From Amoebophrya sp. A120 (Eukaryota; Protista; Dinoflagellata), in contig CAJINV010000001.1 in assembly GCA_905178155.1 (NCBI GenBank), positions 8,339,599 to 8,403,598 of the forward strand: 64,000 nucleotides of DNA, read 5' to 3'. The notes under the pieces are model-generated. The model did no database searches and was not told the origin of the DNA. It saw only the letters and a list, made by a program, of their open reading frames with translations. A program made the translations under genes and the position numbers. Positions 8,401 through 63,861 of this stretch are shown piece by piece. Every line of letters begins with the position of its first letter. Within the stretch, counting starts at the first letter, position 1.

Positions 8401-11400
8401 CCGTGCTGCGGGGCCTGGTGGACGATCATGGTACCGGCCTCGGTCCCCACGTACTCATCCACGAAGACGGACCAGGCCTTGTCCAGGTTCACTTTCGTTC
8501 TCGCGTAGTCGAAGAGCGGCTTGTACCGGAGGCCGCCGAGCTCCTTTCCCGGGACGGTTTTCACGATTTTGCAGCTGTCCTTAGCAACCTTCGTCTTCCC
8601 GAAATACCCGAAGTTGTTCATTTCGGACAACACCCACTCAAACCGTTCCTTTCCGACAATGATCGTCTCGGTTTTGTTCGTTTCCGCGTTCGGGGGGAGC
8701 TCAACGTAGAAATACGTGTGCGTCGGGTGGACGCAGAGCGCTAAGTTGGAAGGCAGCGTCCAGTATCAAATGCAAAAATGTCTGGGTCTGGAAAGTCGTA
8801 ATGCTAAAAGTGGATGATAGCCGGACTGCAATACGCAGCCAAGCATGACAAATTTTTGAGCGGCTACGTGTTGCGTATTCCGCATGAGAAACNTTTCCAG
8901 ACCCAGACATTTTTACAATCCATACCTCAGAAGCGGTTGCAATGGTACTGCCCATAAACTCCTGCAGCGCCGCGCGGCCGAAGAGAGCGACGATCCAATA
9001 TCGCAATGACAAATCCCCCCTCCCCATATTGACGCGGTAGGTTTTCGCAAATTTGCGTTGCTGATATGTGACCACAAATCGTGTCTGTGTTGCAAGACGG
9101 CAACTCCACCGGCTCCGCTGCATTATGCAGGCGGTTTGTCAACATGCTGTTAAGCGCTACAGCACGGACGTTTTTCATGCTAAAAAGCGCCTAGATTAAA
9201 GCCTCTCTACTCAGGCTTGATATGGGTCATCTGCAGTCCTGTCCAGCAAGACAAATCTGACTTGTGTACTCAAATCCAGCATCAGAAACTTCGTTTTCAT
9301 ATGGGGAGAAGGGATTTTTCCTTTTGATATCAAAGCCTTGACCGCCACGCCGGTTTCGTGTTCCAATAAATCCGCGACGCCGAGCGCCCGGAGGTGTTCC
9401 GCGGTTCCGCCGAGAAATTTGCTGGCCCCGACCCGGGCGTGAATAATCAGCGCCTCCGCGACGGTGTGGAGGTTCAGATTGGCCTTCGCCTTGTCAATCG
9501 CGCCGGAGTACAGGGCTTGTCGTGCCGCGAACCGACCGATTTCTTCCAAAACGGTAATGTTCGCGTCGGGCGTGACCTGTTTGTCATCGGCAATACCGTC
9601 CTTCGGAAACATCGGGTCCGTCCCCTGCACCTGCGCGGCACCTTCGGCCGCCGCGACAACCGACGCGGCGCCGGACCGGGATAGTAAGTCCGCAAGCCTT
9701 TCGTGCGTTTGGAACTTCTCACCAAGAACTCCCGCGATGCAGTGCTCCGCGATCCCCTCGGAGGCGAGGCGGAAATCCGGTTTGGAAGCCATGTCCTTGG
9801 TCCGCAGAGCCTTGGACAGCTTGAAGTTCGTCACATTGTTGGAGGTGGTCGGCTTCATGACCTTACAATGCCGGGCGATGTCCGTGTCTTCCAACGGCGT
9901 TTTGTACTGCAACTTGCTCAACCCGGCGCCGGTTAAACCCGCGCCCAGAATCTGCTCATTGGACATTCCCATCGACTCCATCGCGTTTTCAATATTTTCC
10001 TGCTCCTCCCCCCGCAGCTGCGCCATCCGTTCCGGCTCGATCAAACGAAAGCTCGCGTCGGGCACGTAGGTCACGTCCGCCGCTTGGTACAGTGCGGATA
10101 GCTTTTATGCAATACAAATATGCCCCCACACGACCCAGTTTTTGTCATGCAAGAAGTACTTCAGCATTGTCTCCTCTGATGCGAAATTTGCAAGGCTGCC
10201 TTCGCTGAGACCAAGACGCACTATCAAAATCTTGAATCAATTTGTCTTGCGACCCGTGCATCTGCTTATCCTTTCCAGAGGCTGCTTTTTGCAATACAAA
10301 TTTCTGAGTCAGAAGGCATAATTGCTTTGCATAACTTCCCGTCCCCGAAGACATCAGAAGAACGACTCGGCTTGTAGAAGTTATCGATGGAATTGTCCTA
10401 TGCATTGCAAAAGTATCGTACTCGTACTACTTGCGTTTCTGCATTACAAATCTTTTTATCAAGGCAAATCCGCATTACAGCTTCAGTTTGTAGTGCTAGG
10501 TGAATTTGTAATGCATTTATACGAGTACGATGCTTTTGCAGTTCATATGTCCTGGGCGTGTTTGTCCTTTTCGGTCAAAAACGCAACTTCGTCCCGGGAG
10601 TGGTCGGACTCGATCACCATCACGTCGCCGAGTTCCGGGTCGACAATCATGTGGCAGAGGCACTCTAAAAGCCTATCATCCCGGTCCATCTCGTGCTCCA
10701 TCACGAGCAGTTGCTCCGCATCTTTTAGGAATCCGGTGCAGCATAAAATGTCGACAATCCCACCCTCATCAAGTGTCATGATATCGTCCATGTGGATCAT
10801 CACGATTTTCATCTGCTCGTGAATCGTCCCATCGTTATCTTTCTCCGGGCCCAGTAAGTCCAACGCGTCCTCAATGTCGCAGAACGAGGAAAACATTTCC
10901 AACAAATCCCTCGTTTTACTAACTTTCGTCTCGTCCGGGATCACCATGACAATGTCCCGTCGCGTCCGGTGCGGCTCCGTCCCGGGGACCCGGGGCAAAT
11001 GCCGGTCCTGACTCATGCCGACCACTTCTAACAACTGTGTCCGATCCCCCGCCACCTGCACGATCGTGTGGTTGTCGCGAGATTGCAAGATCGAGACCTT
11101 CGCGGGGGGGGAGTTCTGCTCCTTCTCCATGTCCCCCATGTTGTCCGCGCCGATTTCTCCGGTGGCGAGATATCGCGCTTCCGCGGGTAGTTTATCCCCA
11201 CGCGTGCACGAAATGTCGGTTTGCGACTGCTTGGCCGCGCGGCCCATGAGGTCTTGCAACAAGGCGGAGTCTTGTGGTTGCCCGGACAGGTTGTCGTTTT
11301 TCATTTTTTCGTCCCTTTTCCTCCTTTGCTCCGGGTCGATGTCCATCTCGACCCCCGGCATGAGTTCGATCGACCCCCAGAGTTGCGCCCCTTTTACCCG

Positions 11401-14138
11401 CAGTTGCATCCCCAACTCCTGCACGAACTCGTTCTGCCAGGAACTGTTCAACAATAACGCGTCGCGGATGTGCAACCGTCTCACTCTTTCCTCCAGCATG
11501 TTGCCGAAATGCATCAGGATTCATCAAATGCAAAAGTGTCTGGGTCTGGAAACTTGTGATGCTGGGTGGCGTCTCATGATGAGGCCACAAATGCTGGCTT
11601 AGCATGACAAGTTTCTGAGTTTCTAGGTGTTGCCTATTCTGCATGACAAACTGCGTTTCTGCATCACAGAAAAATGGAGCTCTTGGGTAACGTGCATGAC
11701 AGATTTAAGAGCCATGCCAGACAAGCATGACAAATCTCGCAATCTTCCAGACCCAGACATTTTTACAGTTGATAGGATTTCGCTCGCCACAATCTCCGGG
11801 TTGGGGACCAGTTGCATTTGCGGCTGCTCTATCAAATGCAAAAATGTCTGGGTCTGGAAAGTTGTAATGCTAAAAGTGGATGATAGCCGGACTGCAATAC
11901 GCAGCCAAGCATGACAAATTTTTGAGCGGCTACGTGTTGCGTATTCCGCATGAGAAACTGCGTTTTTGCATGACAGATAGGAGAGCCGGTTCGTTCCCAC
12001 GCATTACAGATTCTCGAGTCATGTCAGACATGCATGACAAGTCGCAGAATCTTCCAGACCCAGACATTTTTACATTTGATATCCAGGGTGTGGTCGTCCA
12101 CGCTAAAATGGTCAGGTCCGCCTGGTTATGAAATGCAAAAATGTCTGGGTCTGGAAGAATGCAACTTGTGATGCTGTATTTGGAAGCCAAAAAAATCTGT
12201 ATTGCATGAGTAGCAAACAGAATGCAATTTTTGCTAAGCTGAGAAGGCATTTGTCATGCGGAATAGGCATCAAGAAGCCCTCAAAAAATCTCTATTGCTA
12301 GGGTATGCATCACAGACATCATGGCTCATGCAAAACGTGCATGATATGTTTCAGAATCTTCCAGACCCAGACATTTTTACAGTTGATACTGGTCGACAAC
12401 TTCGAACCGCGCAATGACGGAGGGGTCCTTATCCAAGAAAAAAACACCATCACAGTCACACTTGGGAGGTTTTGCATCAGAAATTCTTCTCGCATGACAA
12501 ACTTTTCTTGTATTGCAAAAACACAAAGGGAAATCGGCTATAAGTGTTGACTGTGATGCATTTTTGCGCATGACAAAAATTTTTGTATTGCAAAAATGTG
12601 CAAAAGTGATTGTGATCGTGTTTTTTTCTTGGATAGTCTTTCACGTCCTTGTAGTTCTGGGACACTTCGAAATTGGACAGGGCGGTCTTATCAAATGTAA
12701 AAATGTCTGGGTCTGGAAGAATGCATGTTTGTCATGCTTGTCTGGCATGACTCTTAAATCTGTCATGCACATTGCCCAAGAGACGTTTTTTTCTGTCATG
12801 CGGAGACGCAGTTTGTCATGCAGAATAGGCACCACCTACAAGCTCAGAAATTCGTCATGCTAAGCCAGCACTTGTGGCCTCCTTATGCTACGCCACTCAG
12901 CATCACAAGTTTCCAGACCCATACATTTTTACCCTTGATAGGTCTGGCAGGCGAACGAATACGGCATCACGCGGAGCGCCCGGTAGACCATACCTGTTGA
13001 GAGATTTATTTTGTGGACTATAGGATTTGCATTTGACAATCTTCAGTTCTCATGCCCCTACCTTGTGCAGGAGCATATTAAGACCGGAAATAATTCCATG
13101 TACGTGTACTAAGGGAAGTCATGCAAAAATACCAAGTACCTTTCTCGAAGAGTTGCTTGAAGACCCACCAGATGGATTCCATGAAGTTTACGTCCATCGT
13201 TTTGTAATCGTTGTCCATATCAATCCACCTTCCGTATCTTTCCACGGTTTTTCTCCAGTCCTGGGCGTACCGTTGCACCTGTTTATTAGAGCGACGATTG
13301 TATTGTGATCATTCGTGTCCGATTCATTGTGGAAATCGAACTATGAAAAAGCGCTCTGTGTGCATAACCAGACAAAGCAACATGGAAGGTCATGTGATCC
13401 AGAACGGATGAAAAAGGTTCAGTACGATGCTGCGGCACTGCTCGTTGTATGCTGCTATCCCCATGTCGTAAACGTCTTTACGTTCTTTGATGCCCAACTT
13501 CTTGTCGATCTCGTTCTCTACTGGAAGTCTGTGTTTTGTCGGAATCAAAGGATTTTATTCATCCGTCATTCTCATTTTATCCAAGATTCTTGCACCAGAC
13601 GCTCACAAAATTGCGCTAGCTACAATCATGATCATGTCAATCCACATCGATAATGCTGCACGCAAACATCATGAAACCGTACCCGTGGCAATCCCAGCCC
13701 CATCGCCGCAAGACCTGCTTTCCGTTCTGGTGCTGATACCTACAGACGACATCTTTTATCGTTCCCGCTAGGATGTGCCCGTAGTGCGGCAACCCGGTCG
13801 CGAATGGGGGTCCATCGTAGAAAATGTAGGCCGGTTTATCTGCAGTATCGGTTTGAGAACAGTTGCGTAAGTATTTGTTGTAAATTTTTCCAATGAAACG
13901 CAAAACTAAAGTCGATTCATCTGCTCTTCGTCCTTCGAGGGTACTGCGTGTGAAGAACTGGCCGGCAATCATAACCAGGCGCTCAACTTCTACCTGAGTG
14001 AATGAAAATAATACCTTTGCTCTGCTCCATGCATTGTGCGAAAGCCTTAATTTCCCGCCATTTTTTCAGCACTTTCTCCTCCTCTTCCGGGAAGCAGGGT
14101 CGCTCCGGAATCTCCTTAAAGGTTGACGCGACCACCAT
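5412..14138 (-). CDS. IARS1: Isoleucyl-tRNA synthetase, cytosolic type, multi-exon
   Basis: [75 protein letters not shown] and KMSKS can all be reconstructed. About 7 canonical GT-AG introns plus 4 TIR-element introns. Confidence 0.97.
8764..8924. mobile_element. Family A TIR element broken by an N gap at 8893
   Basis: Starts TATCAAATGCAAAAATGTCTGGGTCTGGAA with left flank TCCAG. 8764-8892 differs by 1 nt from 11830-11958. After the N is a right TIR ending ...AATCCATA with a non-matching flank (CCTCA). Confidence 0.85.
9211..11829 (-). CDS. Hypothetical protein (about 660 aa, probably 5'-truncated) lying inside an IleRS intron
   Basis: Removing three TIR elements gives one frame: [10 protein letters not shown]...SEILMHFGN...HAQDNSIDNF...[16 protein letters not shown]...DDPYQA*. 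No recognisable domain. Confidence 0.8.
10106..10333. mobile_element. TIR introner (family H), 228 bp
   Basis: IR TATGCAATACAAATATGCC / GGCATAATTGCTTTGCATA. Decayed TSD GCTTT/ACTTC. Removal restores the frame GDGKLS. Confidence 0.75.
10399..10547. mobile_element. TIR introner (family G), 149 bp
   Basis: IR TATGCATTGCAAAAGTATCGTACTCGTA / TACGAGTACGATGCTTTTGCAGTTCATA. Perfect TSD TGTCC. Confidence 0.9.
11522..11774. mobile_element. TIR introner (family A1), 253 bp
   Basis: About 30-bp IR, perfect TSD GGATT. Highly similar to 33624-33875. Removal gives SEILMHF. Confidence 0.93.
11830..12081. mobile_element. TIR introner (family A3), 252 bp, discordant flanks
   Basis: Left flank is TGCTC and right flank is TCCAG. 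The matching TCCAG lies at 8759-8763. Confidence 0.9.
12127..12388. mobile_element. TIR introner (family A2), 262 bp, in IleRS
   Basis: Perfect TSD CTGGT. Removal gives [13 protein letters not shown]. Similar to 48551-48813. Confidence 0.93.
12430..12635. mobile_element. TIR introner (family B), 206 bp, in IleRS
   Basis: IR TATCCAAGAAAAAAACAC / GTGTTTTTTTCTTGGATA. TSD GTCCT/GTCTT. Removal gives YKDVKDPSV. Confidence 0.92.
12689..12940. mobile_element. TIR introner (family A1, inverted orientation), 252 bp, in IleRS
   Basis: Perfect TSD GGTCT. Interior is the reverse complement of the 11522 and 33624 copies. Removal gives CQTALSNFE. Confidence 0.93.
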
Positions 14139-15418: not shown

Positions 15419-15511
15419 TTCTCATTTGACATGCAAAGAAAAAAATGCGAGAAGTGCGTTCGTGTAAAAAAATGTAAACTGTGTGTGAAATGCGAACTAT
15501 TATTAGAAAAT

Positions 15512-25883: not shown

Positions 25884-27551
25884 CTATCTGCGCAATGCCG
25901 AGGATGAGCTGGAGGCAGCGAGGTTGCGCTGATTCGGGTCCTTATCGGAAGAAGCGAAGATGCTCTGCTTCTGCAGGTTCGACTTGATAAACCCCTTTTG
26001 TTTGGTGTTTTTCTGGCAGAACTTTTGCCACCCGTTCGCTTTCTTGAAGGCGTCCTGCTCCTGCTTCTCGTCCTTTTGTTGCTGCTTCACGTGGTGAATC
26101 TTGCGCTTCTTCTTTGCTTTTACCTGAAGTGCGATTTGCATGTTGAATTATGAAATCTGGCTCGAATGCAATAAGTATGCCATTTGAAAATTACGCATGC
26201 AGCAGCAAGAAGAGTCAGTTCGGTTCAGAAGACAGAAGCACGGAAATAATGTAGCAGGTCCTGTTTTATTGAAGTCGAGTAGTACCTCGTCGGTGTCCTC
26301 AGGCTTCACCATGAAGTGCTCGGGAATCACGTAGCCGCCTGGTGTTATTATCTCCTTCGCAGGTCGCTTTCCGGCGGCAGCTGTTCGTATTTTTTTCCGA
26401 CAATTTCACTTCAAGGGCAGAAATCAGCCCCTTTCCCTGAAAATACTTTTCCAAAGTCGTGAGACACGTCGTAGCGATCAAGATCTATCAAGAAAAACAC
26501 AAATCACTTACCGGCAGCTCCGCCTAGCGTTTTTGCAATCTTCTGCCTGACTTGGTCAAATTTCACTTCGTCCTTGGTATTGTAGTCCGTAAAGCGCACT
26601 ATGTAGCCCCGATCGGTGTGTTCTTCCACAACGCAGTCGTACCAAAGCCCGTCAATCACCGATATTGCCTGCAGCTTCGTGCCGGGGAGACAGGCGGCCG
26701 GTGGAAGAGCGCGGAGCATCTTCAGTTCGGAAAGTTTAACCTCCTTCCGCTCCCGCTCGCCAAAAACGGTCAGCATGGCGCGGTCAACCCCCCGCTCGTC
26801 GCGACGAATGTTGAATACCTCTGCGTTGTACCTGTTTTGTGAAAGAAATGGAAGTTCAAATTGCGAAAGAAAGCGCATTCAAAAAACAAAAAGAGAAAAT
26901 TGAGTGCAAAACTAAGCGTTGTAAAGCATGTACAGAAAAGGCTGTATCTCATGGATGAATTTATCAACAAAAAACAGCCTTATACCAGCCGTTGAGCGAG
27001 CCGGGGAGATGTACTTCGCAGCTTCTGCCTATGAGTTCATGTCCCCGGCCTCGGTGCTGCGCCGGTCGGTCGTCGTCCGGCAGCAACTTTCCTTGTTGTC
27101 TCGCCTGCAGCGCTTCCGGGGCCTTCTGGACGACCTCTTTTTCCATGACCACCACCTCCTCGAGCAGCTTGATGACATCCTGCAAGTCCTGTCGCGCTTC
27201 CTTCAGCGCCTCGTAACTTATCACACAGAAAAAAACTGGCAGGGCATATTTGTAATGCAAAAATAAATACACAAAAAAATAAATCTGTATTGCATATCCG
27301 AAGCAGTATGCTATGGGGCCACCCATGACAAGTTTTTGTGTGTATTTATTTTTGCATTACAAACATGCCCTGCCAGCTTTTTTCTCTGGGATATAACTGG
27401 GGTCCGTGTCCGGGGTCACCGCGAGGGTTTCGTCCACGACCTGGAGCTGCTCGCGGTACTCCTTGAGCTGCTGCTGCTTGTCCTTCTCCTCCTCCGGAGG
27501 ATAGTTGTCATCCTCGTCGTCGTGCGGAAGATCCGACGGACGGTTCGACAT
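25884..27551 (-). CDS. SMNDC1: Tudor-domain splicing factor SPF30/SMNDC1-like
   Basis: N-terminal LKEYREQLQVV...DLQDVIKL, Tudor AISVIDGLWYDCVV...VRFTDYNTKDEV, and C-terminal KANGWQKF...KQSIFAS. GT-AG introns plus one TIR element. Confidence 0.85.
27219..27393. mobile_element. TIR introner (family E), 175 bp, about 58-bp IR
   Basis: TATCACACAGAAAAAAACTGGCAGGGCAT... / ...ATGCCCTGCCAGCTTTTTTCTCTGGGATA. Perfect TSD TAACT. Removal gives DPSYEALKE. Confidence 0.93.
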
Positions 27552-31783: not shown

Positions 31784-34195
31784 TTACTGCGCCGGCATCG
31801 ATGCCTCTTCTTCGAACACTGGGTACACGCGGACCCCCGGTGTCGGGTCCGCCGTGGTGGTGGTCGGAACAGCTGCAGATGTGGAAGCGGTACTAGCTGT
31901 GGCAGCAGGCCACTCGACACTGCGGGCCTTGTGGAGCAAGTTCTTCACGCCCGTCTTGGCCTTGCCGTACAAATTAGTCAACGTGCTCTTCGGCGTGCAG
32001 GCGGAAATCGCAGTTTGCGCAGCCTCCGGGTAGTCCCGGAGCATGTTGTTGACCTGCTCGTAGCAGTTCATTTGGACCTTCGCCATGGAATAAGAGGGCG
32101 TACAGTACGAGGAGTTCTCGGAATTGGACATGCAGCTCTCGTACATCTTGTCCCGCGCGTATTCGTAGCCCTGGAGAGATTTTCATTAAAGTTATAAAGG
32201 GTTGGGGAAAAAATGTCAACATTTTTTGTGGTATCTGAGGCGGCAGGCATCGTGCGCACTACAAGGGGAATCGCTAAAGCTCGGATTTCCTTTTTACCCT
32301 TTTGCTGTGGATCGCAGATATCCAGCATTCAAATCACGACCCAACGGCACGAATCGAAGATGAAGATGATGTTGATGTCGAGTGTGAAACACACTGAAGA
32401 TCCATGAAGATGATCAATCGATGAGTACTACCAATGTTCCATTTCCCGATGCTATGAGCATCGTCAGAGCTTTACAAGCCCTGTACAAGCTTCCACATGC
32501 GGAAGTCAATCCGCATGGTATGATACGGACTCATTCTGAATCTTTCCCTACAGGTTTGTAGTGTTACCCCAGTAACACGAAGGAAGAAAGGAACTACATG
32601 GACTATAGCACCCGCATTCACACAAGCACGATGTAGCCCTGACGTTGTTCCACCCTCGTTACACGTAGTAAGATCGTTACTCGGTTGGGTTTCGTGAGTG
32701 CTGACCTTTTCGGTCTTACATTTGCACACAAAGAATGATGTCAAAGCTCCTGCTGAAATGCAATCTGGCGCAACCTTCTTCGGTACTGTAATAGCTACCA
32801 ATTTTTGCATCAACATCAACTCGACAACGAGCTCACGGAAAAGCTATTAAACAAACCTTCTGAAGCAAATCAGTGGGCTGACAAACTCCCTGGGCGTCCG
32901 TAGGCACGTTCTCCTGGCAGTATTGGTGCATTGTTTGCGGCACTCGCTCCGTAATAGTCTCCACGGGGTTGCAGAAGACCTGGAAGAAGTCAAGAAACAA
33001 GCGCAATTGCATAGTGCTCAACGTACTGAAAATTTCGTAGCTAATTGAGACGGGTCATGTAGGTCCTCAGCGTACATGCTGACAAGGGCGAAAGGAGCCT
33101 GGCATTAATTCATGACGCTGAGCGACGCAAAGAAAAAATCGTATTAGGACTACAAAATTACTCCGCCATAATTTCCTCCCAGCGTGTCGGCTGCGGACGT
33201 GGCCCCGAGCATGCACTGGTCGTGCGCACTTTGAGCAAATCGAGTGCAAATATGTCTGGGTCATCTGGATTCATGCATATATATTTTGTTTGACCCAGGA
33301 TGCCTGTGCTGTATGCCCAAGCATCACAGATTTTCTGAGTGCTTCTCGAGGCTGATGCCTCTCCCGCATGCAAAATGACCTCTCCGCGTTGCAAAAAACG
33401 GACTACTCATACGCTTGCTGCTTAGGCAATACAGATTTTTCGTTTCAGATTCCAAGAGCAGCATCACAAGTTTCACTCCTTCCGACCCCGAGGACACATT
33501 TGCAATGCATAGAGCAGCGTCCTGGATTTCCTTCTGGAATTCCTCCTTGATCGCCTGGTAGCCGAGGAAGCACACGCAAGCCGTCTGTAAAATAGAAATT
33601 GAAATTTGTCTTGCGAGTCAAGCTATCAAAAGTAAAAATGTCTGGGTCTGGAAACATGTGATGCTGGGTGGCGTCTCATGATGAGGCTGCAGATGCTGGC
33701 TCAGCATGACAAGTTTCTGAGCTCCTAGGTGTTGCCTATTCTGCATGACAAACTGCGCTTCTGCATCACAGAAAAGCGGACCTCTTGGGTAACGTGCATG
33801 ACAGATTTAAGAGTCATGCCAGACAAGCATGACAAACATGAAGTCTTCCAGACCCAGACATTTTTACAGTTGATACAAGCCGTCTACACATGTAATGCTG
33901 GAGCAATCAACGTATCATTGAATGCGCGAAAAAGTACACGCAGCAAGGCTGCAGAGCCAGAGGCACAGCCTCTCGATCAAGATTGTATCGCGCTAAGCTT
34001 TCCTAGCTGCGGCTGCTCCCACTCTGAGTAAGATAGTAATCAACTTTGACTTACATTGATTCGCCCAATACGACGCGCCAAGTTCCATCCCTTCCGCACC
34101 ACCGCTTTCCCGCACCGCACGGGCTTCCTCACCAAGAAGGACGCCAGGGCGGCATCCTGCGCCAAAAAAGACAGGACAAGCAGCTTCTTCAACAT
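31784..34195 (-). CDS. Putative secreted Cys-containing protein, multi-exon
   Basis: Signal-like MLKKLLVLSFLAQDAALA. Exons joined by GT-AG sites (IN|TACV, GG|VFCN, QK|GYEY) and one TIR element (QDAAQSAH). Confidence 0.7.
33238..33511. mobile_element. Degenerate family A-related TIR introner, 274 bp
   Basis: AATCGAGTGCAAATATGTCTGGGTC...GACACATTTGCAATGCATA. Perfect TSD GAGCA. Removal restores the frame. Confidence 0.8.
33624..33875. mobile_element. Family A1 TIR element, 252 bp, inside a canonical intron
   Basis: Perfect TSD CAAGC. Lies within the GT-AG intron 33585-34054. Confidence 0.92.
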
Positions 34196-40765: not shown

Positions 40766-42033
40766 TCACTGCTGCGGCATCTGGATGCTCGGATTGGTCG
40801 CGCGCAAATTCGTTCTTTGCCGAAACTGGCGCACCGCGTCGTCGTCGGTTGCTTCCTTGCTCCGCTCGTTCTTCGGCACGTAATCCGCCTGGAACCGGTT
40901 TCCGTACACTTGTCCCACGAGCTTCTGCGTGTTCGGGTTCAGATTTGCCTGCCGCATGCGGGCCTCCCGATGCGCCTGGGCGGCCATTTTCTCGAGCACC
41001 TTCTTCTTCGCCTCCTCGGCGGCAATCATGTTCTGCACGCGTAACTCCGTCGAGACCTCCACTTCGGCCAGCCCCTGAGTCCAGTTCATGTTCTTCTCGC
41101 TGTCGTCGAGCTGCATGCCGCCCTGGATCTTCAAGTGCTCTGGAATCGCGAACAGTTGCGCCTCCGCGCTCTCCTTCGCATCCTCGGGCTTCTTCGCGGC
41201 ATCGGCGTTCGGATCCGGAACCGCTTCCCCGCGTTCCTCCGCCAGTTTTGCGGCAATGAAGGCCTCCATGTGCTCTTGCTCGCGGGATTTCTGGTTCGCC
41301 CGCTCGTCCTTTGCGAACGCCAGTTCGACGTGCGCTTTTTTCGCTGCTTTTTCGTTTTCGTTCTCCTATCCTGAGTAAAAACGTCCCCACCCCATAGTTG
41401 TAATGCTAAAGGAATTGCAGCACACTTTGCCCCCCCCTCTGCCCCAGGCCGCAGATGGCTTGACACGCAGGGGGGGTAGGTCAGGCGGACACCGAAGTGC
41501 CATCACCATCATCTCCCGGCCACTTGTAATGCAGATTTGCGGTTACAGGAAGATTTGTAATGCGCATCCCCATGAGAAACATTGCCAATCGTGTTCTGGA
41601 CTTTGTAATGCTGTAAACAGGATGAGTAGATGGATTTGTATTGCGGCTGTACTTGCTAAACTGCACTACAATACAAAGAGGACTTTGTCATGCTTGGCTC
41701 CCACAACTTCCCACTTTGTGATGCGAGATCCCCATTTTGACTCTGGGGTGGGGACGTTTTCACACTGGATATCTCCTCCTCCGACTTCTTCTCCTCCATT
41801 TCGTCGTGCTTTCTTTTCGAGGTCCCGTCGGCGCGGACGCCCACGCGAAGCCTTCGGGCCTTCTGGATCTCCTTCATGTCGACCACGTCTGCTGTGCCCT
41901 CCGCATTGTAGTTCCCGTCCTCGTCGCTGCCCGCCTTCGCGTCCTCCGCTGCAGGCTTCGCGAGAACGTCCTCCGGGTCACTCTCCACACCCTGCCGCTT
42001 GCCCGTGTCGACTCGCCGCTTCTTGCGAAACAT
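40766..42033 (-). CDS. TLS1/C9orf78 (HCA59 family) spliceosome-associated protein
   Basis: HMEAFIAAKL, LFAIPEHLK, GLAEVEVSTELRVQNMIAAEEAKK and ATDDDAVRQFR match my recollection of the family. One TIR-element intron. Confidence 0.8.
41367..41771. mobile_element. TIR introner (family C), 405 bp
   Basis: IR TATCCTGAGTAAAAACGTCCCCACCCCA / TGGGGTGGGGACGTTTTCACACTGGATA. Perfect TSD TCTCC. Removal gives SEEENENEK. Confidence 0.93.
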
Positions 42034-42954: not shown

Positions 42955-43214
42955 TGATTCGAAGCCGTGATAAAATCGGAAACTACGAACTGCATCACCC
43001 AAGCATCAACATACGGCAAGAACCAGCGAGGCAAAACTTCCCGAAACTTCTGCAGCCATCCTTTTTCAAAAAGTGAAAAGAAAAAACGGATAGGAATGAT
43101 GCCCCCCTCCCGGTATTGGCACAGCACAATTCACAACTGATTCCCTCTCCTGTCGCCCCAGTGAATTGCAACGGGATCCTGGTTACTTACGAGGACAGCA
43201 CCAAGATCATCAAG

Positions 43215-44732: not shown

Positions 44733-46361
44733 CTAGTACGCAATCCCGATTTTCCCCCGGAGTTCCTCCACCCCGGACGTTCTTCGGTTGCCGCCCTCCA
44801 GCGCCGATTTGCGCTCCTCTTTGCGCTCTGCTTTGCGCTTCTTCCACTTCTCCCACTGCTCTTCGCAATTATTGAAAATTCCGTCCAATGGCGTTTTGCA
44901 CTCCGGACATTTTTTTGACTTCGCCCAGTTCTTCATGGCGCAACTCTCGCAGAAGTAGTGCTTGCAATTCGTCACTATCGGCGGACTTTTGTTGTCTGCC
45001 CACCTCTTTTTGCAGGTCGCGCAAATTTCTGGCATCTTCAGCTTGGCGTCTGTTTAAGTGGTTCAGCATTCATTTGTTCACTAAAAACTTCATTTTTGCA
45101 CGAAAGGAGAAGATCAAGATGCAAGAACCAGGAGGACATTCATCATTCAACATAGCAGTAGAAAATATCGCATCAAGATCTTCAAAGTACAACAACTGTG
45201 CACCAATCTAATATCTTTACCTTCTGCCGTGAGATTTTTCTCATCATCCGAGTCGTCTTCGCTGGTGCTGATATCCTCTCCCGCGTCGACTCGTCGGCAG
45301 CGCTCCATGCGTTTTTGCAGTTTTTCCTGCTTCTTCTTCTGCTCCTCCTCCCACTGCTTGTCTAACTTCCAGCCGCCGGTGTGCTCTATTCTGGTGTGCA
45401 TGAAGATGCAGGCGTCTCCGTACCCACAGAACCCGGTCTGCATGTACTCCTTGCACACACCACCGTCGCCACTCATACCCCAGTAGTCGAACCGGGTGAT
45501 GCTCCGCGCGGTGGTGCTTGCTCGCACGGGGCCCATGTTATCCTGAGTAAAAACGTCCCCGCACCAGAGTTAAGATGTTGGGAAATCCGCTAGACAAATC
45601 CATAAGCTTTGGCTGTTTCGCATGACAAATTTGGACGCGTAGTGTAGTGCTGTTTGAGCTAGTTCAGCAGCATTACAGATCTAGTATCTCATGCTGATTG
45701 GACCATGACAAATTTCCAAACCGCATTAGAAAATGCTTCTCATGGGGCTCCGCATGAGAAACATTTTAAACATGCAGAGCTGCATGACAACTATGGTGTG
45801 GGGACGTTTTTACACAGAATACATGTTCCCGGTGATTTTGTTTTTCGACAGTGCCCCCTCGCTCTTCCCGATGTACTCCTTGCGCGCGTTCTGCCCGCGG
45901 TAGATGCCCGCGTCGAGGTTGCCCTCGTCTAGTGCGGACTTGATTTTCATGTTGCGCTCGTGAATGGACCGCTGATCCTGGTTGATGTCGGTGTCAATCT
46001 TGATATTCCTCGTAGCAAAGTCCTTCCCCGTGAGCTGCTGGCTGATCCCGAACTCGCTGGTCACGGAGTAGATATCTCCCGCCGCCTCCACCAGCGCACT
46101 GCCGGCGTCGCCCTGCTTCCATTTGGTGCTGCTTGCACTGCCGCCGAACTGGTTCTGCTTCACTGCGTTACTCGATTCTGGGTTTTTCAAGTTTCCCGTC
46201 GCGCGGCCCAGTGCCTGTCTTTTCGCCGCGTGCACGATCACGGTCTCGTCGCTGTCTGGTTTGTTGATGTTGTTGTTGGTACCCGCTTCTTCAGGCGCCG
46301 CAGCGGCGGCGTCCTGCTCTTGTTTCGCGGGCCCGGTCGGCCCCTTACGCTTCTTGAACAT
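44733..46361 (-). CDS. CWC24: CWC24/RNF113A splicing factor (CCCH + RING)
   Basis: GPVRA...RFDY...CKEYMQTGFCGYGDACIFMH...GWKLDKQW and RING CATC...IVTNCKHYFCESCA...CPEC. One TIR element and one GT-AG intron. Confidence 0.92.
45539..45821. mobile_element. TIR introner (family C, opposite orientation to 41367), 283 bp
   Basis: Perfect TSD CATGT. Removal gives TGNMGPVRA. Confidence 0.93.
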
Positions 46362-47176: not shown

Positions 47177-49216
47177 TTAACTGTCGCTGACGACACCGAC
47201 CGCCTCTTCGGCCTCGTTTGCTTCGCGGGCTACGGGCTGCAGGGTTTTCACCGAGCAGAGTAGCTCGGCGCTGACGTCCAGCACCCCCGCGGCGTTGTCG
47301 TACTCCCCGAAATAGTTGGGGGCCGAGAAAATCGTGATCAACGAGCGTCCGGCGAAGAATTCGTACCCGTCCTGCACCACCTGGTGGGCCCGGCACACGA
47401 GATCCAGGTCGTGCTTCTGCACGAAGTTTATCGCACGAAAAAAGTGTTACAGTTACACATTTGTTGTCAATTCAGCAACACAAATTTCTCTGCATGAGAG
47501 AGAAAACTTGCAATGCAGAAATCCCACGGGAAAATACCTGCGAAAGGAGGCTCCTACGCATATCCGGCATGACAGTGCTTGTCTGTCTTGCTTGGCCTGC
47601 AACCCAATGTGTAACTGTAACACTTTTTTCTCAGGATAAAGTTCCGCACGATGTCACTGCCGAACGCGTAGCTGATCCCGCGGTCACTCGGACGGATATT
47701 ACAGTGGAAAATGCCCCCACCCCAAAAGTCGCAAAAACTTGTGATGCGAAGTTTCCAAATGAAAACTTTTTGTCATGCATGAAAGAAATATGAATCTTTC
47801 TGATGCAGAGTCTAGGCGTGTATCGCATCGCTTGCATGACAAGCGCCACTCTTGCTGAGTTCTTTTGCAATACAAATTTTTGCTATTCACGATTGGAACT
47901 CTGTGATGCTGATAGATGCAAGAGGGCGAATGTTTCATTTGGAAGTTTTTGCAATACAAATGCTCCCAAGTTCGGGGGTGGGGGCATTTTTCACTTTGAT
48001 AACGAAACCCCGAGGTTCGCGCATCGGGGTCCGCCCACAACAGGTCGGCCAGCAGGCCGCTGTCCGAACACTCACACGGACGCTGCAACTCGCGGATCGG
48101 GTCCAGCGACTCCATGATCGTAGGGGAGATACCTCCGTGCATGCACAGAATTCGCTTGCCCACCAGAGCCGCGGGGGGCATACAGTTAAATACGTCCACG
48201 AAGCGCCGCCAGAGCTTCACGCCGGACCTGTGGAGCGGTTTTATCTTATATTTTGCTAGTTTCTGGTTGATCTGTACGTTCCCTTCTGAAGAAAGAAGAT
48301 GGTAGTTTCGCACAATGACAATCCGCAGACTTTTATATATCATAATATCGCGGCCATTGCGTGACGCATCTGCAAGTGCTGGCCAGCAGCTGCAGCAACA
48401 AATATATATGGGCACACTAAAACAAACGAGCTATACCGTCGCTTGACTTCGTCGAAGAAGCCGTAACATCTGGATGTGGCCGCGGTTTCGTGGTTGCCGC
48501 GCAGGAGAAACATGTTGTAGGGGTACTGGACCTTGTAGCAGAACAAGGTCTATCAAATGCAAAAATGTCTGGGTCTGGAAGAATGTAACTTGTGATGCTG
48601 CGTTTGGAATCCCAAAAAATCTGTATTGCACGAGCAGCAAAGGGAAGGCAACATTTGCTTCGCGGAGAGGGTATTTGTCATGCGCAATAGGCATTAAGAA
48701 GGCCTCAAAAAATCTGTGATGCTAGGGCAGGCATCACAGACATCATGGCTCCTGCAAAATGTGCACGACAAACTCCCCAAGTCTTCCAGACCCAGACATA
48801 TTTGCAATGCATAAGGTCGCGACCACGTCCAGGGAGTTTTTCCCCCGATCCACGTAGTCTCCGAGGAAGAGAAAGTTTTTCGTGCCGGGGTACCCGACCA
48901 GCTCGAAGAGCCTCAACAAATCGTGAAACTGCCCATGCGTGTCGCCCATGATGGTGACCGGCGCGGCGAGCTCGAGTAAGGACGGTTGGGACAGGAAGAG
49001 CGCGCGCACGAGGTGGAGCATCCACTCCATGTCCTGCTCCAGAAACGGTAACCATGTTCCCGCGACTTGCGACTGCAGGGCGAGAAACGACTGCAGTAAC
49101 CTTTCGACACTGGGTCGCACCGGTGCGTGGCGCGTCGACGAATCCGTCGCAGTCGCGGTGTTGGTTCTCTCTTTACAAATGGAAAGCCCCGGCGCGCGAC
49201 GCGCATCGTTCCTCAT
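47177..49216 (-). CDS. PP1-like Ser/Thr protein phosphatase catalytic subunit
   Basis: GDTHGQ, GDYVDRG, LRGNHE, MHGG, DLLWADP, RAHQ and FSAPNY. Three TIR elements and one GT-AG intron (48228-48436). Confidence 0.95.
47429..47638. mobile_element. TIR introner (family F), 210 bp
   Basis: IR TATCGCACGAAAAAAGTGTTACAGTTACACATT / AATGTGTAACTGTAACACTTTTTTCTCAGGATA. Perfect TSD AAGTT. Removal gives [12 protein letters not shown]. Confidence 0.93.
47697..48001. mobile_element. TIR introner (family D, C-related), 305 bp
   Basis: IR TATTACAGTGGAAAATGCCCCCACCCC / GGGGTGGGGGCATTTTTCACTTTGATA. TSD ACGGA/ACGAA. Removal gives [11 protein letters not shown]. Confidence 0.9.
48551..48813. mobile_element. TIR introner (family A2), 263 bp
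   Basis: Perfect TSD AGGTC. Removal gives VATLFCYK. Confidence 0.93.
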
Positions 49217-50212: not shown

Positions 50213-51272
50213 CGAGACAACCCTGCAGCTTGGTGGCTTTGTAGCGTTGTTGGAGAAAGCCTTCCAGAAGATAAGTACTCACCGCCTTCCGATTGGGCTG
50301 ACACTGGTAATGCGTGCAGTTTCTCTCCGCACCATGCTCCCGTGTCTTAAGCTTGTTCCAAGCCGCCGTTGCCAAAGTGTAACAAAAGGAGGTCTGACAG
50401 GCTAACTTATTTTCGTCGTCTTATTGTAAGCACATAATTATGAATCACGTTCACGACCAAAGAAACAGCATTGAGGATATCAGAATCTGGGTAGTGCTGG
50501 TTGTGTGTTGAAGCTGTCAACTGCAAACTGGCATATTGTAGAAAAAGCAAGAATGAAGAGCAGTATCTTATTTCCCAGTTCCAAACGAGTCGGTGCTCCA
50601 AGTGGGCCAAGAAATCTTTGGAGGACGATGGTCTATATACCGCCGTGTACGTCGCGGTCTTCAGTGCACGTTGCAGAATTAGGACGCATACGGCGAATAA
50701 AGCTGCACGAAACCGAGCAATCTTTACAATCATCAGAATTACCGATGCAAGTAGGGAGTACTCACCAGTGTTGGTACCAAAAATCGCGCACGAACGAGTC
50801 TGACGAGGCAACGACCGATGCTTTTTCGTGATGAAACAGCTGAGCTACTGGCTACCGCTAGAAGGTAGAGACTGACCGATAAGAAAGAATAAGTTGAAGT
50901 ACCAATTTCTGACCGAGCTTCAGCACTATCAACATAAGTAAATGAGGCCATTTCGTCCACACCGATTCTGAGGTTCTGCTGCAAGAAAACATACAGTAAA
51001 ATTCGGAAACACAAACAGGCACAAGTGCACTTCTGCCATGCACTGTCCGTCTTCACTGTATTAACCGCGAAGCTATCACGGCAACTGAGCTAACGTGAAA
51101 ATTCTATCACTTGAGTATGCGTATGCGTGTGTTCAAGCTTTAGCTTGTGAAAAAAATGCAGAAAAAAACATCGAAATTCAGGTATCTATGTATAGCGCGC
51201 TGGTCCTTCGTGTGTGAAAAAGAGCTGCACACTGGACAACAGCAAAAGGTTTAAGTATTGCTGCTCGCCTTC

Positions 51273-59486: not shown

Positions 59487-60165
59487 TTCTCTTCTTAAGG
59501 AGGAGCACAATGGAATGGGGGCTATTTTTTCTGTTGAAACTCAAACTGGTGGAAAAACTTGCAGCGCTAATTTAGCTGGGCCGTCAACATTATTTTCCTG
59601 TTCGAGCAAAATCCAATCCGTTCAATGCTTGAATACACGGGTCACGACCCTAAACTCCAGGACGCACAAAAAAACGAAGATGACGCTTTACACAAAAATC
59701 TGAAAAAGGAAAAAAAAACGAGTGGGTCAAAAAACAAGCTATCAAACAGCAGGCAAAGGGATCAAGCGAAAAAAAAAACGAAAAAAAATGTTGAAAAAAG
59801 CAATGACGATCAAAGATTGCCAAGATATCACAATTCAAGCGAGCGTTATAGGTGTTCGGAACTTCATCTTTCGAGCTTACTACACTTTGCTACATGGAAC
59901 TCTTACTTTCTTGTTCTCTGTTCTTCGTATGAGAACTACCGTGAGTGCACACCGCATGGGCACGCAACACTAGTCGCTGTTCCACTTCATTTCCTTGTGT
60001 TGAGTCGCTTTTTTTTTCTTTTTGCTTCAATTTTACATCAACCTTAGATTTTCCGAGGCATCTTCATGCGCACCATCGCTAAAATGTCGTCGTTTATTCT
60101 TTTCCACCCGCGGCTTTTTTGGCAGCACGTGTGTCTGGTAGGATCTACTCCTGTCCTCTCCCTTC

Positions 60166-63100
60166 CTACTTCACTTCCTCAGCGAAAAACTGCTTCAAAA
60201 TTTCCCCGTACTCCATGTTCTCCAGCCTGCCCACCATGTCGCTGATCTGGTCGTCTAGGGCCTGTTTGGAGATGAAACTGTGCTGGATCTCAAACTCGCG
60301 GAACAGGCTCCACAGCTGCGCCACGGACTCCACCAGCGACACGTGGATCGGGCGGAACAACACGTGAAAGGTGCTGAAGTTCTGACTCGCCGCGTGGCTG
60401 TCAAACCCGTCCTCATTCGCTTCGAAGCGATTGGTCAGGTATATCCGCATCTTCGCACACAAAAGCGGGACTTTACTGGTCACAGACTGCAGGAAATCCG
60501 CATTCAGCTTCTCCAGTGCAGCTGGCTGCAAGAAGGATTTGCTCTTGGCAGCGGCCTGAAGTAGAATGATCGCAACAAATTATAATCTGGATTCGTCAAA
60601 AAAAAGTGACTCATTCATTGTCACTGGATTCCTCTGAAGTAAAACGAATGGAAAAGAAAAGTCTTGTACTTGACACATCAGCCAAGAAATAAACCAGCCT
60701 TATCCATGTAACATACCACTTGCTCCCGTGTCTCGGTGCCGTAGCTACCCATCTCCTCGGTGACGCGCGCGTTGAATTCCACCAGAGGCAGCGCTATGCT
60801 TTGAATTTGCTCTTGAATCAGCACCTCACACGCGTTCCGCAACTCTGTTTCCATGTCCTTCTTGCTGTCGATTCTTGTTTCCGTCAACTTTGGCGTGAGA
60901 ATGCGGAACAACTTCCCCGAGACGCGCAGAACGCCCCGGTCGTTCGCGGCGCGCGAAACCGTCGACGCGAGAGAACTGCTAATGGTATCCTTGGAGCTTG
61001 GGGTGCGGATCTCCGCAAACGCGTCTTTTACGTTACCGTAGATTGCTGCGAAATCGAAGAACTTCTCCTTGCAGACCAAGTCGCATTCGAAAGACACAAC
61101 TTGTTCCCGCAACACGAGTAGGTGCTTGATCAGAAACAGCTGCCCATCCATGTTGCTCTTGATCTTCGTGCTGTAGTACTTCAGGGTCCCGATGCAGGCA
61201 TCCACTGATTCCTGCGCTAAACCCTGGAACGTCGAAATTTCCAAAACGCGAAAAATTTTTGACAGCACCAGGAGCGTGCGCTCGAGTGTGACGAAATTGC
61301 CCTTCGAGCTGCCTTTCGCCAGGTAGTACTCCATGTCCGCGAGCGTTTCGTTCGGCTTGTCGAAGTTGCGAAAGAGCATCGCGGGGTATGAGAGTTGCCT
61401 TTCGTCCTGGAGCACGAAGCCCTTAATTTCGTCACGGATGTACATCTGCACACGAAAAATTAGCCGTTCCTGTACGTCGCGATAGAGCCGGAGAACGATA
61501 CCCAGCAGCGCAACCAGGTCGTGTTCTGTATGGAAAAAAAAAGAGATAGAGAATCAAAATGATGCTTCTAGTATACCGGAGAATTGAATCTTTTCTTCGG
61601 ACCTCTATAGCAGTCATAAAGTGATCATGCTGCTCGATTGATAGAAGAGCACCGGTCGGTTAACAATTTTTAATCATAACATGGAGTAATATAATAAACA
61701 TGTCTGTTTTTCGGCAGTCAATATCACATTTCTCTGACCTGATTTCCCGCTCGCCACGTCGGACTGGTGCGGCTGTAGAATGTCGAGCTGCTATCCAGTG
61801 CAAAAGTATGAGTATCGTACTAGAAGTATAAATCGCATGACAAATTTCCTCAGCATGAGAAATGAAATTTGGAATGCGGATTTAACTTGACAAAAAAACC
61901 TGTACTGCATAAATGCGATTAGTACGAGTACGATACTTTTGCAATGCATAGCTGCAATGCGTCCGCAATTTCCCGAAGCACGTCGATGTATCCTGAGAAA
62001 AAAAGCTTACAGTTAAAAACCCTGCTGCAAGACAAGCGAGGCAAAATGCGACTGCCTGCCAGGCTCATAATAATTTCATGCATATTCATGCGTGTTTCTG
62101 TTTTCCATAAATAATCTTTAGAATTTTTCTTTGCCATGTAGAGCAAGTTTCCGTTGCTGAAGTTCCAACAGATGTGCAAGTAACTGTAACACATTTTTTC
62201 ATCCTGGATACGATGTCATCGAACGAGAGTATCAAAGGCCGGATGAGATCGTAAAGCAGAGTCCCGAAGTGCTTGATCAGACCGTCAAGCGAGTCCTGCG
62301 GGTGTCGCGCGTCGAAGTAGGCCAGGAAAGTTTGTTTCTCTAAAATACAGAGTTTCAACACGTAGGTGGAGATCTGTCGGATGCAGGCGCTGGGGTCTTC
62401 TTGGAAGTTCACCATCACGTTTTGCATGTGCTGCTGCAAGGGACCGGACACCAAGCGAATGCGCATCTGCACGAAAAAGTTTTCCAGCTCGTCCAGCGCC
62501 TGGCCGTAGATGTCCGCGCCGTCGCGTCTGCGGTAGAGCTGCTGCGCCAGCGGCTTCATGTGGGTCGCCGCAGCGCGGAACCGCACGTAGAAAACTGACG
62601 TCTCGTACCTGTAGTTGTTATTTGAGAGAACGACTCGAATTCCGATTGGAACAAGTCTTGTACTAGCGGCCAGGGGCCCAGGGGCCAGGGGAGAAGTTTT
62701 CTCGATTTTATTCATCAATCACAATGAACAAATTCTTTCTCCTCTTCTTCCCGATACCCGCTTTTCCCGCCCGCCGCGGACTCGACTTGTTCCAAAACCT
62801 GCTCTAGTGTCCGCTCCAAGTTCCTACAGACCTGCGTCTTGAGCATCTGGCACGCACGGCGGCGCATTTGGTCGTAGTCGCGCAGATACTGCTTCGAGTC
62901 GTAGTACTCCGGATGCCTTTCCAGAAACGCTATGCCGTCGTCCAACGCATCCAAACACCGCTCGAATTCGTCCGTCGGAGCCGAGTGGGGGCCGCGGTCG
63001 AGGATCCGCTGCAGGTCCACCACACGGTCGAACTTCTCCAGCCTCTCGCTGATCGACTTCGTGTACTCTTCCAGGACGTGTTGTTCTTTCAACAAGTGTT

Positions 63101-63861
63101 CGCACTGGTGGTGTAGCACGTCGTATCCAGTGTAGAAACGGACCCACCCCAATTCTGCATGCCCAGTATAATGTGTGTCATGCGGCACTCCATGAAGATG
63201 AGAGGCAGTTTCTAGTGATGCTTGGAACAAATCTGTCGTGCGCTAAACAGGTCAAGACAGTGGATTTGTATTTATGCGTTTGAATTAGCTAGACACGACT
63301 ACACTGCATAACCAAGTTTGTCATACGTGAGCCGGACAAGTTCTTCACGATTTGTCTTGCAAAACTTCCATCTTGACTCTGGGATGGGGACGTTTTTACA
63401 CAGGATACGTCGCATTTGTGCGAGACTTCGCGCCGAAAATGCTCCACCTGCTCCAATTTTTCAAAAGCGAGCGCAAGGGAATCGCAGACCTGAGAGGCGA
63501 ATAAGGAGGATGAGTATGTTAGAGAACTTTAGAACATTGGTCTGCTTCTTGTGGAACTGCGCCCTACGTGCAGCTGAGGAGGTCTCACAGCATTTACAAC
63601 AAGAACAGCATGCCAGGCAAAAATCATCGAATGAAGCCGCACCTCGTGACAAAGTTGCTGGTGGTGGAAAATCCAGCCCCAGTTCGTCAGATAGGCCAGC
63701 GACTCCGTTTCCTCTTCGTATTGCCGCTCCATTTTCTGGAAGAACCGGTAAAAGTCCTCCTCCTTTACCGGTTTGGAACTTGAGGAAGAGGACGACGCCG
63801 TCGCCACCATGGCTGAAACATCCTCCAGCAGTGCCTGCTGCCTCTGCGTCAGGTTCGCCAT
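60166..63861 (-). CDS. COG3: Conserved oligomeric Golgi complex subunit 3 (Sec34)
   Basis: LHHQCEHLLKEQ, LYDLIRPLI, DVQERLIFRVQ, LERTLLVLSK, FQGLAQE, DGQLFLIKHLLVLREQ and DSKKDME. GT-AG introns plus 3 TIR elements. Confidence 0.93.
61792..61950. mobile_element. TIR introner (family G), 159 bp
   Basis: TATCCAGTGCAAAAGTAT... / ...ATACTTTTGCAATGCATA. Perfect TSD GCTGC. Removal gives DALQLDIL. Confidence 0.9.
61989..62210. mobile_element. TIR introner (family F), 222 bp
   Basis: Perfect TSD CGATG. Removal gives FDDIDVLRE. Confidence 0.9.
63124..63407. mobile_element. TIR introner (family C), 284 bp
   Basis: Perfect TSD CGTCG. Removal gives SHKCDVLHHQC. Confidence 0.92.

What the first reader, a model, noticed from the sequence alone, without database searches (positions are those of the whole stretch)
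8764..63407. Multi-family system of TAT...ATA inverted-repeat elements with 5-bp TSDs acting as introns with no GT-AG
Seen: 18 complete elements from about 8 TIR families have TAT...ATA ends (two with one decayed base), an A-rich tract roughly 9-15 nt inside each end, and 5-bp direct repeats. The repeats are perfect in 14 elements, imperfect in 3 and discordant in 1. Seventeen interrupt coding sequence, including conserved motifs of essential genes (IleRS, PP1, COG3, CWC24), and removing element plus one repeat restores the frame. Sliding the junction through each TSD never yields GT-AG. Sense TSDs AACTT (47429), AATCC (11522), TGCTC (33238) and CTGGA (8764/12081) give neither GT nor AG in any register. 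The same genes also carry ordinary GT-AG introns. Known: IR/DR-type non-canonical introners are described in Amoebophrya, and to my knowledge their excision mechanism is unresolved. Inference: a second, dinucleotide-independent splicing route defined by the terminal hairpin coexists with the major spliceosome.
Basis: partly seen in the sequence, partly recalled or inferred. Interest (0 to 1): 0.92.

Follow-up and report, generated by a model that had tools for sequence, protein, structure and literature searches.

The report
Known Amoebophrya introner elements, confirmed
Small transposon-like DNA elements, already described in the marine parasite Amoebophrya A120, sit inside essential genes and are cut out cleanly where RNA could be checked, although they lack the usual splice signals; how they are removed is still unknown, most likely by an adapted form of the normal splicing machine.

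Summary
The window holds 18 contiguous TAT...ATA inverted-repeat elements with 5-bp direct repeats (14 perfect, 3 with one mismatch, 1 with two), plus one split across an assembly gap (8764/12081). Window exons match public Amoebophrya A120 IleRS and COG3 letter for letter, with element+5 nt removed at 7 of 7 junctions. RNA-like contigs show one exact junction and two exact edges. Farhat 2021 described these A120 introners: TAT, 7 nt, AAA; 3-5-nt repeats; RNA-supported; mechanism open.

New here, from over 200 related elements: the repeat is 5 bp; GT-AG occurs at chance level; insertion is in both orientations; the A-tract is not universal; positions 4-10 of the arms pair no better than shuffled partners. 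The first T of the sense 5' end is kept while the 3' terminal A decays (0 vs 8, post hoc). This fits a strand-specific N|UAY donor, like the local GTAY donors, better than a purely hairpin-defined route. I put an adapted spliceosome at 0.5 and a separate route at 0.3. The scan noted look-alike introns in other genomes.

The parts
5415..14138 (-). Cytoplasmic isoleucyl-tRNA synthetase gene, host of 3 elements plus the split one, and of GT-AG introns
   Evidence: Exons identical to P0001 (Amoebophrya sp. A120); Pfam
8764..8924 (-). Element stub with an N at 8893; left flank TCCAG pairs with the right flank of 12081; probable assembly join
   Evidence: P0001 joins 12083 to 8759 (3323 = 3318+5) inside WTTTPW|TLPSN
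8925..11829 (-). Open-ended piece of an unknown gene (641 codons, no stop, after removing 4 elements +5 each) lying inside the IleRS gap
   Evidence: no close relative found
8999..9329 (-). Element, 331 nt, sense repeats TTTGA/TTGGA
10106..10333 (-). Element, 228 nt, sense repeats GAAGT/AAAGC (2 mismatches, both synonymous); the GT-AG option of n+6 breaks the frame
10399..10547 (-). Element, 149 nt, repeat GGACA
11522..11774 (-). Element, 253 nt, repeat AATCC, sense 3' terminal base decayed
11830..12081 (-). Element, 252 nt, with non-matching flanks; its left 129 nt are near-identical to the 8764 stub
12127..12388 (-). Element in IleRS, 262 nt, repeat ACCAG, 267 nt removed
12430..12635 (-). 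Element in IleRS, 206 nt, repeats AAGAC/AGGAC, 211 nt removed
12689..12940 (-). Element in IleRS, 252 nt, repeat AGACC, 257 nt removed; opposite orientation to family members 11522 and 33624
27219..27393 (-). Element, 175 nt, repeat AGTTA, in a gene with a weak Tudor match downstream
33238..33511 (-). Element, 274 nt, repeat TGCTC, diverged arms, sense 3' terminal base decayed
33624..33875 (-). Element, 252 nt, repeat GCTTG, nested in the GT-AG intron 34054-33585
41367..41771 (-). Element, 405 nt, repeat GGAGA, upstream of a Hep_59 domain; an RNA-like contig skips exactly 410 nt
   Evidence: (X1 record 4)
45539..45821 (-).
47429..47638 (-). Element in PP1, 210 nt, repeat AACTT
47697..48001 (-). 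Element in PP1, 305 nt, repeats TTCGT/TCCGT
48551..48813 (-). Element in PP1, 263 nt, repeat GACCT
60169..63861 (-). COG3 gene, host of 3 elements and 4 GT-AG introns
   Evidence: Exons identical to P0121 (A120)
61792..61950 (-). Element in COG3, 159 nt, repeat GCAGC, 164 nt removed
61989..62210 (-). Element in COG3, 222 nt, repeat CATCG, arms offset by an indel, 227 nt removed
63124..63407 (-). Element in COG3, 284 nt, repeat CGACG, 289 nt removed

Best explanation
These are the published introner elements of Amoebophrya A120: short inverted-repeat elements flanked by 5-bp repeats, likely spread as non-autonomous DNA transposons, removed from RNA as element plus 5 nt where RNA could be checked, and most likely excised by an adapted U2-type spliceosome rather than by a separate machine. 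Shown: the anatomy, the 5-bp rule, the frame restoration, exact loss in RNA-like contigs at three sites, insertion in both orientations, and no selection of target sites for GT or AG. Inferred: an unknown transposase inserts them with a 5-nt staggered cut and little sequence preference. Because both ends carry the same terminal repeat, either orientation presents a usable 5' end. The spliceosome would read N|UAY: it would cut one base upstream of the element, so that the element's first U is intron +2, as in the local GTAY donors with +1 relaxed. The 3' cut would fall 4 nt past the element, set by distance from the terminal repeat or stem and not by AG. The direct repeat then rebuilds the original exon. 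An element-specific adaptor or an altered U2AF or U1 function is required and is not identified.
For: Identity: P0001 and P0121 (A120) match window exons exactly, with n+5 removed at 7 of 7 element junctions and no indel against orthologues. PP1 is colinear with PDB 3e7a across 47697 and 47429 (residues 216 + 18 = 234, next exon starts at 235). RNA: X1 record 4 skips 41362-41771 (410 = 405+5) with 0 other letters, and X1 pieces begin at 45822 and 48813, as predicted for exact removal. X1 also has a loose end that fits loss of the GT-AG intron 32980-33161. X5 contigs, which keep the elements, run unbroken from exon into element. Related elements: perfect 5-nt repeat in 170 of 208 chosen blind to flanks, 0 of 208 at 6 nt. 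Removal of +5 gives the best coding frame in 170 of 226. GT-AG is possible in 9 of 141 coding sites (3.6% expected, p=0.11) and neither GT nor AG in 44 of 141 (32% expected). Orientations are 10:8, 6:6 and 9:6 in the three largest families. For the spliceosome reading: changes at TIR position 1 are 0 at sense 5' ends and 6 at 3' ends among 142 coding elements, plus 2 more at 3' ends in the window (0:8, p=0.008; 1:12 with weak strand calls). The 5' changes in coding elements are TAC twice and TTT once. Local donors are GTA in 10 of 12 and GTAY in 8 of 12. In that register, first A with last C occurs 20 times vs 10.9 expected, and AT-AC 7 vs 3.1 (antisense 1) among 163. Precedent: Fritillaria uses its spliceosome for TIR-derived non-canonical introns (PMC11282704, PMC13326754, passages). 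Farhat found 83 of 89 spliceosomal proteins and no U1 snRNA (PMC7789003 sections 10, 36).
Against: No lariat, branch point or factor was tested. All 12 local canonical acceptors are CAG, so the same spliceosome would have to be strict on one class of intron and blind on another. The 5'/3' asymmetry was noticed post hoc, rests on 8-13 events and on strand calls from a codon model, and one coding 5' end has TTT. The A..C excess is one of 16 cells, uncorrected. GT-AG in that register is 5 vs 3.9 expected, so there is no excess. Repeat mismatches are synonymous in 19 of 31, above the 41-49% ceiling for a fixed register (p 0.016-0.11), which hints at a variable cut. All 19 folded elements pair their ends (15-30 of the first 30 nt, against 0-10 in 10 canonical introns), which would hide donor-like signals and suits a structure-guided route. 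RNA evidence is contigs from one run whose RNA status the tool calls a guess, and only 15 of 267 joints were displayed. Farhat reported no transposase in A120 (section 16).
Confidence: 0.5

Rival explanations
1. One reading: a second, non-spliceosomal route recognises the terminal stem (by a protein endonuclease plus ligase, or by euglenid-like circularisation) and cuts at fixed offsets regardless of sequence.
For: No dinucleotide selection and both orientations. Strong end-to-end folding (z -7.2 and -5.3). Canonical acceptors are strictly CAG, 12 of 12. Euglena non-conventional introns have inverted ends and are excised as circles by unknown machinery (PMC12501133, PMC11282704, passages). [quoted passage not shown]
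Against: Arm positions 4-10 pair no better than shuffled partners (5.3 vs 5.2 matches; 59 of 300 shuffles reach the observed value; 83 elements). The terminal pair is lost on the 3' side only (0:8). Elements with poor arms (33238: 15 of 25; 10106: 16 of 25) still restore the frame. Inverted ends are expected from transposition alone. A strand-biased enzyme could still give the asymmetry, so this model is weakened, not excluded.
Confidence: 0.3
2. The cut register floats within the direct repeat (either machine, or a repeat-guided rejoining), so both repeat copies reach the mRNA.
For: 19 of 31 repeat mismatches are synonymous (4 of 5 in the window), above a fixed-register ceiling. Farhat's Fig. 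3 legend calls the splice sites variable relative to the hairpin.
Against: p rises to 0.07-0.11 at the transition bias observed (22 of 31 transitions). 12 of 31 mismatches change the amino acid. The legend's variability may only reflect alignment ambiguity in the repeat.
Confidence: 0.13
3. The elements are not spliced: the loci are pseudogenes or disrupted alleles, nearby GT-AG sites are used, or the elements excise from DNA.
For: Element-containing contigs exist in X1 at depth about 10. In-frame GT-AG alternatives exist within 24 nt for 16 of 18 coding junctions. No whole genome was available to look for second copies.
Against: Those alternatives change 1-13 codons, yet the proteins show no indel. 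Spliced contigs match the window exons with 0 other letters. X5 unitigs cross the junctions unbranched at single-copy depth of about 45. Farhat counted 66,565 RNA-supported introns in A120, over 60% non-canonical.
Confidence: 0.04

Closest known systems
Introner elements (IEs) of Amoebophrya sp. A120 (Farhat et al. 2021, PMC7789003)
   Same: Same strain by protein identity. IR starts with TAT, then 7 variable nt, then at least 3 A. Direct repeats of 3-5 nt (5 bp in the Fig. S19 legend). Hairpin. Genes with both intron types. RNA support. An alternative splicing mechanism is proposed and unresolved.
   Different: Nothing in kind. This work sharpens the repeat to 5 bp and adds orientation independence, chance-level GT-AG, A-tract-less classes and a 5'/3' asymmetry, which I did not see in the sections read. 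The figures themselves were not visible.
Non-canonical introns of Fritillaria borealis (PMC11282704, PMC13326754; Henriet 2019 seen only as cited)
   Same: TIR- and TSD-bearing, MITE-derived introns without GT-AG, removed by an adapted spliceosome.
   Different: They have preferred ends (AG-AC, AG-AT) and duplicated U2AF subunits. Here no end dinucleotide is preferred and no factor is known.
Non-conventional introns of euglenids (PMC12501133, PMC11282704)
   Same: Inverted ends set a few nt inside the intron, direct repeats blur the junction, they coexist with GT-AG introns, and the machinery is unknown.
   Different: CAG/CTG motifs, excision as circles without lariats, and an unrelated lineage. 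The excised form is untested here.
Spliceosomal introners of Micromonas and Aureococcus, and MITEs (PMC11282704, PMC12130899)
   Same: Non-autonomous TIR elements with target duplication that create introns on insertion.
   Different: Those carry or co-opt canonical splice dinucleotides. These show no such selection and have a 5-bp duplication (3 nt in Micromonas).

Membership tests
Amoebophrya A120 introner elements | Host is A120 or identical in sequence | tested here: met
   IleRS and COG3 exons identical to proteins named Amoebophrya sp. A120
Amoebophrya A120 introner elements | IR begins TAT + 7 variable nt + at least 3 A | tested here: met
   End profile: TAT at 1-3 (required by the search), A 0.97-0.99 at 11-13 (set filtered for an A-tract); window ends
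Amoebophrya A120 introner elements | 3-5-nt direct repeat at the exon/intron boundary | tested here: met
   14 of 18 perfect 5-mers in the window; 170 of 208 in related loci
Amoebophrya A120 introner elements | Repeated in families | tested here: met
   13 of 18 window elements tested (11830 included, 61989 not) cluster with others at 80% or more; 5 are singletons
Amoebophrya A120 introner elements | Non-canonical intron supported by RNA | tested here: met
   One full junction and two edges in X1 contigs; the other elements were not seen in RNA
U2-type spliceosomal intron | GT/GC donor and AG acceptor at the cut | tested here: not met
   0 of 18 in the window; chance level in 141 related sites
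U2-type spliceosomal intron | Lariat with 2'-5' branch; snRNP dependence | not testable with these tools
   Needs lariat sequencing or inhibition
U12-type (AT-AC) intron | AT-AC ends and a minor spliceosome | tested here: not met
   AT-AC possible in 7 of 163; Farhat found no U11/U12/U4atac/U6atac
Euglenid-type non-conventional intron | End-pairing structure | tested here: met
Euglenid-type non-conventional intron | CAG/CTG terminal motifs | tested here: not met
   Ends are TAT/ATA
Euglenid-type non-conventional intron | Excised as a full-length circle, no lariat | not testable with these tools
   Needs RNase R or debranching assays
MITE (non-autonomous TIR DNA transposon) | Short, TIRs, fixed-length TSD, many copies | tested here: met
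   149-405 nt in the window
MITE (non-autonomous TIR DNA transposon) | Cognate transposase with the same termini | not tested
   No genome held; the 148 loci were not searched for a transposase; Farhat reports none in A120
Self-splicing or other Rfam RNA | Match to a curated RNA family | tested here: not met
   0 Rfam hits at gathering score over the window

The most novel reading that the evidence does not exclude
A120 removes tens of thousands of nuclear pre-mRNA introns by a non-spliceosomal machine that recognises a transposon's terminal repeat in either orientation and rejoins the exons through the 5-nt repeat. A transposon would then carry a universal licence to insert at any coding site without harm.
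Probability: 0.3. Interest if true: 0.85.

Novelty: already known. Interest (0 to 1): 0.3.

Why it matters
The class is published, so the discovery value is low. The mechanism is still open: four literature searches returned the 2021 paper, reviews and introner surveys, and no study that fixes the cut register or the excised form in Amoebophrya. Most subscription papers are outside that library. The sharper rules found here (fixed 5-bp repeat, any target, either orientation, a kept 5' U) turn the question into cheap tests on existing RNA data. Either answer matters: a spliceosome that needs no AG and relaxes +1 G, or a new nuclear splicing machine. In practice, gene finders must allow element+5 junctions, and near-identical copies can mis-join assemblies, as probably happened in IleRS here.

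Tried and rejected
No whole genome is held for this window, so there was no search for second gene copies, a transposase, RtcB or snRNAs. The run search listed no holder on record as RNA. Including X5 swamped the joint table (15 of 267 rows shown, all X5). RNA across the IleRS cluster (8500-13150) was not obtained, so the mismatched repeats 8999, 10106 and 12430 and the 8764/12081 join have no read evidence. Proteins cannot fix the register: 4 of 5 window mismatches are synonymous. The TIR pattern gave 0 hits in viral contigs. The gene piece 8925-11829 had no relative among longer proteins, 4 weak representatives and no Pfam match. A GT-AG reading of 10106 (n+6) is rejected: 9 stops. A TCC/GGA target preference seen by eye in the window is not borne out by per-position composition in 163 sites. 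The T depletion at repeat position 4 (9 of 112) faded in the larger set (22 of 163, p 0.11-0.18). AT/GC polarity of mismatches did not fix the register. One search's TAT decay rate was inflated by register-shift artefacts and was redone; three dubious candidates were dropped, and 29 of 274 with repeat match under 3 of 5 before the count. One search returned nothing at too strict a threshold and was not repeated.
Full report
Observation. Looser and gap-tolerant scans added 10106, 33238 and 61989. The window has 18 contiguous elements of 149-405 nt: 14 with perfect 5-bp repeats, 3 with one mismatch and 1 with two. With the two pieces at 8764 and 11830 they cover 7.7% of the window. The 8764/12081 pair is not one intact element. 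It spans an N at 8893 and a stop-free 641-codon piece of another gene that is open at both ends, and 8764-8892 differs from 11830-11958 at 1 of 129 bases. A mis-join through near-identical copies is the simplest reading (inference); a real rearrangement is not excluded.

Host and frames. Pfam identifies IleRS, a PP1-type phosphatase, COG3, a Hep_59 protein and a CCCH finger protein, all on the minus strand. The best IleRS and COG3 hits are named Amoebophrya sp. A120 and match the window exon by exon. At 7 of 7 element junctions the net removal is element+5 (257, 211, 267, 3323, 289, 227, 164 nt), with no indel against A25 and other orthologues. These public models are annotation, not independent reads. 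PP1 is colinear with PDB chain 3e7a across two elements. Six more elements (8999, 10106, 10399, 11522, 27219, 33238) rest on open frames only. Element 33624 lies in a GT-AG intron. In-frame GT-AG alternatives within 24 nt exist for 16 of 18 coding junctions but would change 1-13 codons.

RNA and DNA. Four runs were laid on 33000-50500. X1 (RNA is the tool's guess) has a contig that skips 41362-41771, exactly 405+5, with no other letters. Two more X1 pieces start at 45822 and 48813, the bases predicted for exact removal. A loose end at 33160 fits loss of a canonical intron, so X1 holds spliced RNA. X1 also holds element-containing contigs at depth about 10. X5 contigs run unbroken from exons into elements at depth about 45. 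X8 and X9 hardly map. Four of the seven elements in that stretch had no junction shown, and there is no read evidence for the IleRS cluster.

More copies. Whether they are the same strain was not tested. Of 208 elements chosen without looking at flanks, 170 have a perfect 5-nt repeat, 2 a 4-nt and 0 a 6-nt one. With a codon model trained on window ORFs, removal of +5 gives the best frame in 170 of 226. Among 141 confidently coding sites, GT-AG is possible in 9 (3.6% expected) and neither GT nor AG in 44 (32% expected): targets look like random coding 5-mers. The largest families sit in both orientations relative to the gene (10:8, 6:6, 9:6). Twenty of 246 lack the A-tract at both ends, 11 of them in coding calls.

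Mechanism. Folding pairs the ends of all 19 elements folded and not those of 10 canonical introns, but inverted ends follow from transposition alone. At positions 4-10 the arms match no better than shuffled partners (59 of 300 shuffles reach the observed value). Changes at the first TIR base occur at 0 sense 5' ends and 6 sense 3' ends among 142 coding elements, and both window cases are 3' (0:8, p=0.008). The 5' variants in coding elements are TAC twice and TTT once. Transposition is blind to the host strand, so the asymmetry should come from RNA-level selection (inference; post hoc and small). Local canonical donors are GTAY in 8 of 12 and acceptors CAG in 12 of 12. This suggests a cut one base before the element (N|UAY) and 4 nt after it. 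That register shows a weak A..C excess (20 vs 10.9) and would make the commonest phase phase 0 (repeat starts at codon position 3 in 75 of 163, p=0.003). The phase bias could equally come from target preference. Against a fixed cut, 19 of 31 repeat mismatches are synonymous (p 0.016-0.11). I give an adapted spliceosome 0.5, a separate structure-guided route 0.3, a floating register 0.13 and no true splicing 0.04.

What is known. PMC7789003 (abstract, sections 10, 11, 12, 16, 32, 36 and supplement legends read; figures not visible) reports 66,565 RNA-supported introns in A120, over 60% non-canonical, and 29,850 repeated ones covering 17% of the assembly. Their IRs start TAT + 7 nt + at least 3 A, with 3-5-nt repeats. 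No U1 snRNA and no A120 transposase were found, and an alternative splicing mechanism is suggested. Passages only were read from PMC12130899, PMC12005148 (another Amoebophrya has GT-AG introns and U1), PMC12501133, PMC11282704, PMC13326754 and PMC12787238 (U1-70K homologue in A25). Henriet 2019 and Guminska 2021 were seen only as cited. Searches showed no paper that resolves the Amoebophrya mechanism. The scan's own notes list four look-alike hairpin or TSD introns in other genomes; they are unchecked leads and did not change my reading.

Verdict. Interest 0.3, for the open mechanism and the testable register.

Noticed in passing
window 8764-12081: IleRS is split by an N and a 2.9-kb open-ended piece of an unknown gene; the public model treats it as a 3323-nt intron. 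Probably an assembly mis-join through near-identical elements.
   Followed up: partly
window 33585-34054: An element is nested inside an ordinary GT-AG intron (470 nt; 213 without element+5). Whether it is spliced separately is unknown.
   Followed up: partly
L007:3566-3881, L017:2486-2792, L017:2891-3130, L035:737-952, L049:126-361 and others: TAT...ATA element classes with 5-bp repeats but no A-tract (20 of 246), so the published A120 motif is not universal.
   Followed up: partly
window and loci L001-L148: The repeat starts at codon position 3 in 75 of 163 coding insertions (11 of 18 in the window); the centre base of the repeat is more A/T-rich than its neighbours. Cause unexplained.
   Followed up: partly
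window 12991-13138: The public IleRS model has one extra residue at this canonical intron compared with orthologues, and the gap does not resolve as GT-AG at the implied length; possibly an annotation slip.
   Followed up: no
window 54405-59540 (-): A 1712-codon stop-free frame with no Pfam match and no element inside; several other long ORFs (3-1907, 22346-24082, 36915-38717) are also unmatched.
   Followed up: no
whole window: All genes with clear Pfam matches lie on the minus strand, in line with the unidirectional clusters reported for Amoebophrya.
   Followed up: no
window 33000-50500, runs X8 and X9: Raw RNA runs under the same species label lay almost no reads at 95% likeness, only on element ends; they seem to come from a much diverged strain or hold little parasite RNA.
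   Followed up: no
L042:571-1051, L021:2314-2770, L067:317-820: Long elements (457-504 nt) that may be nested or composite copies.
   Followed up: no
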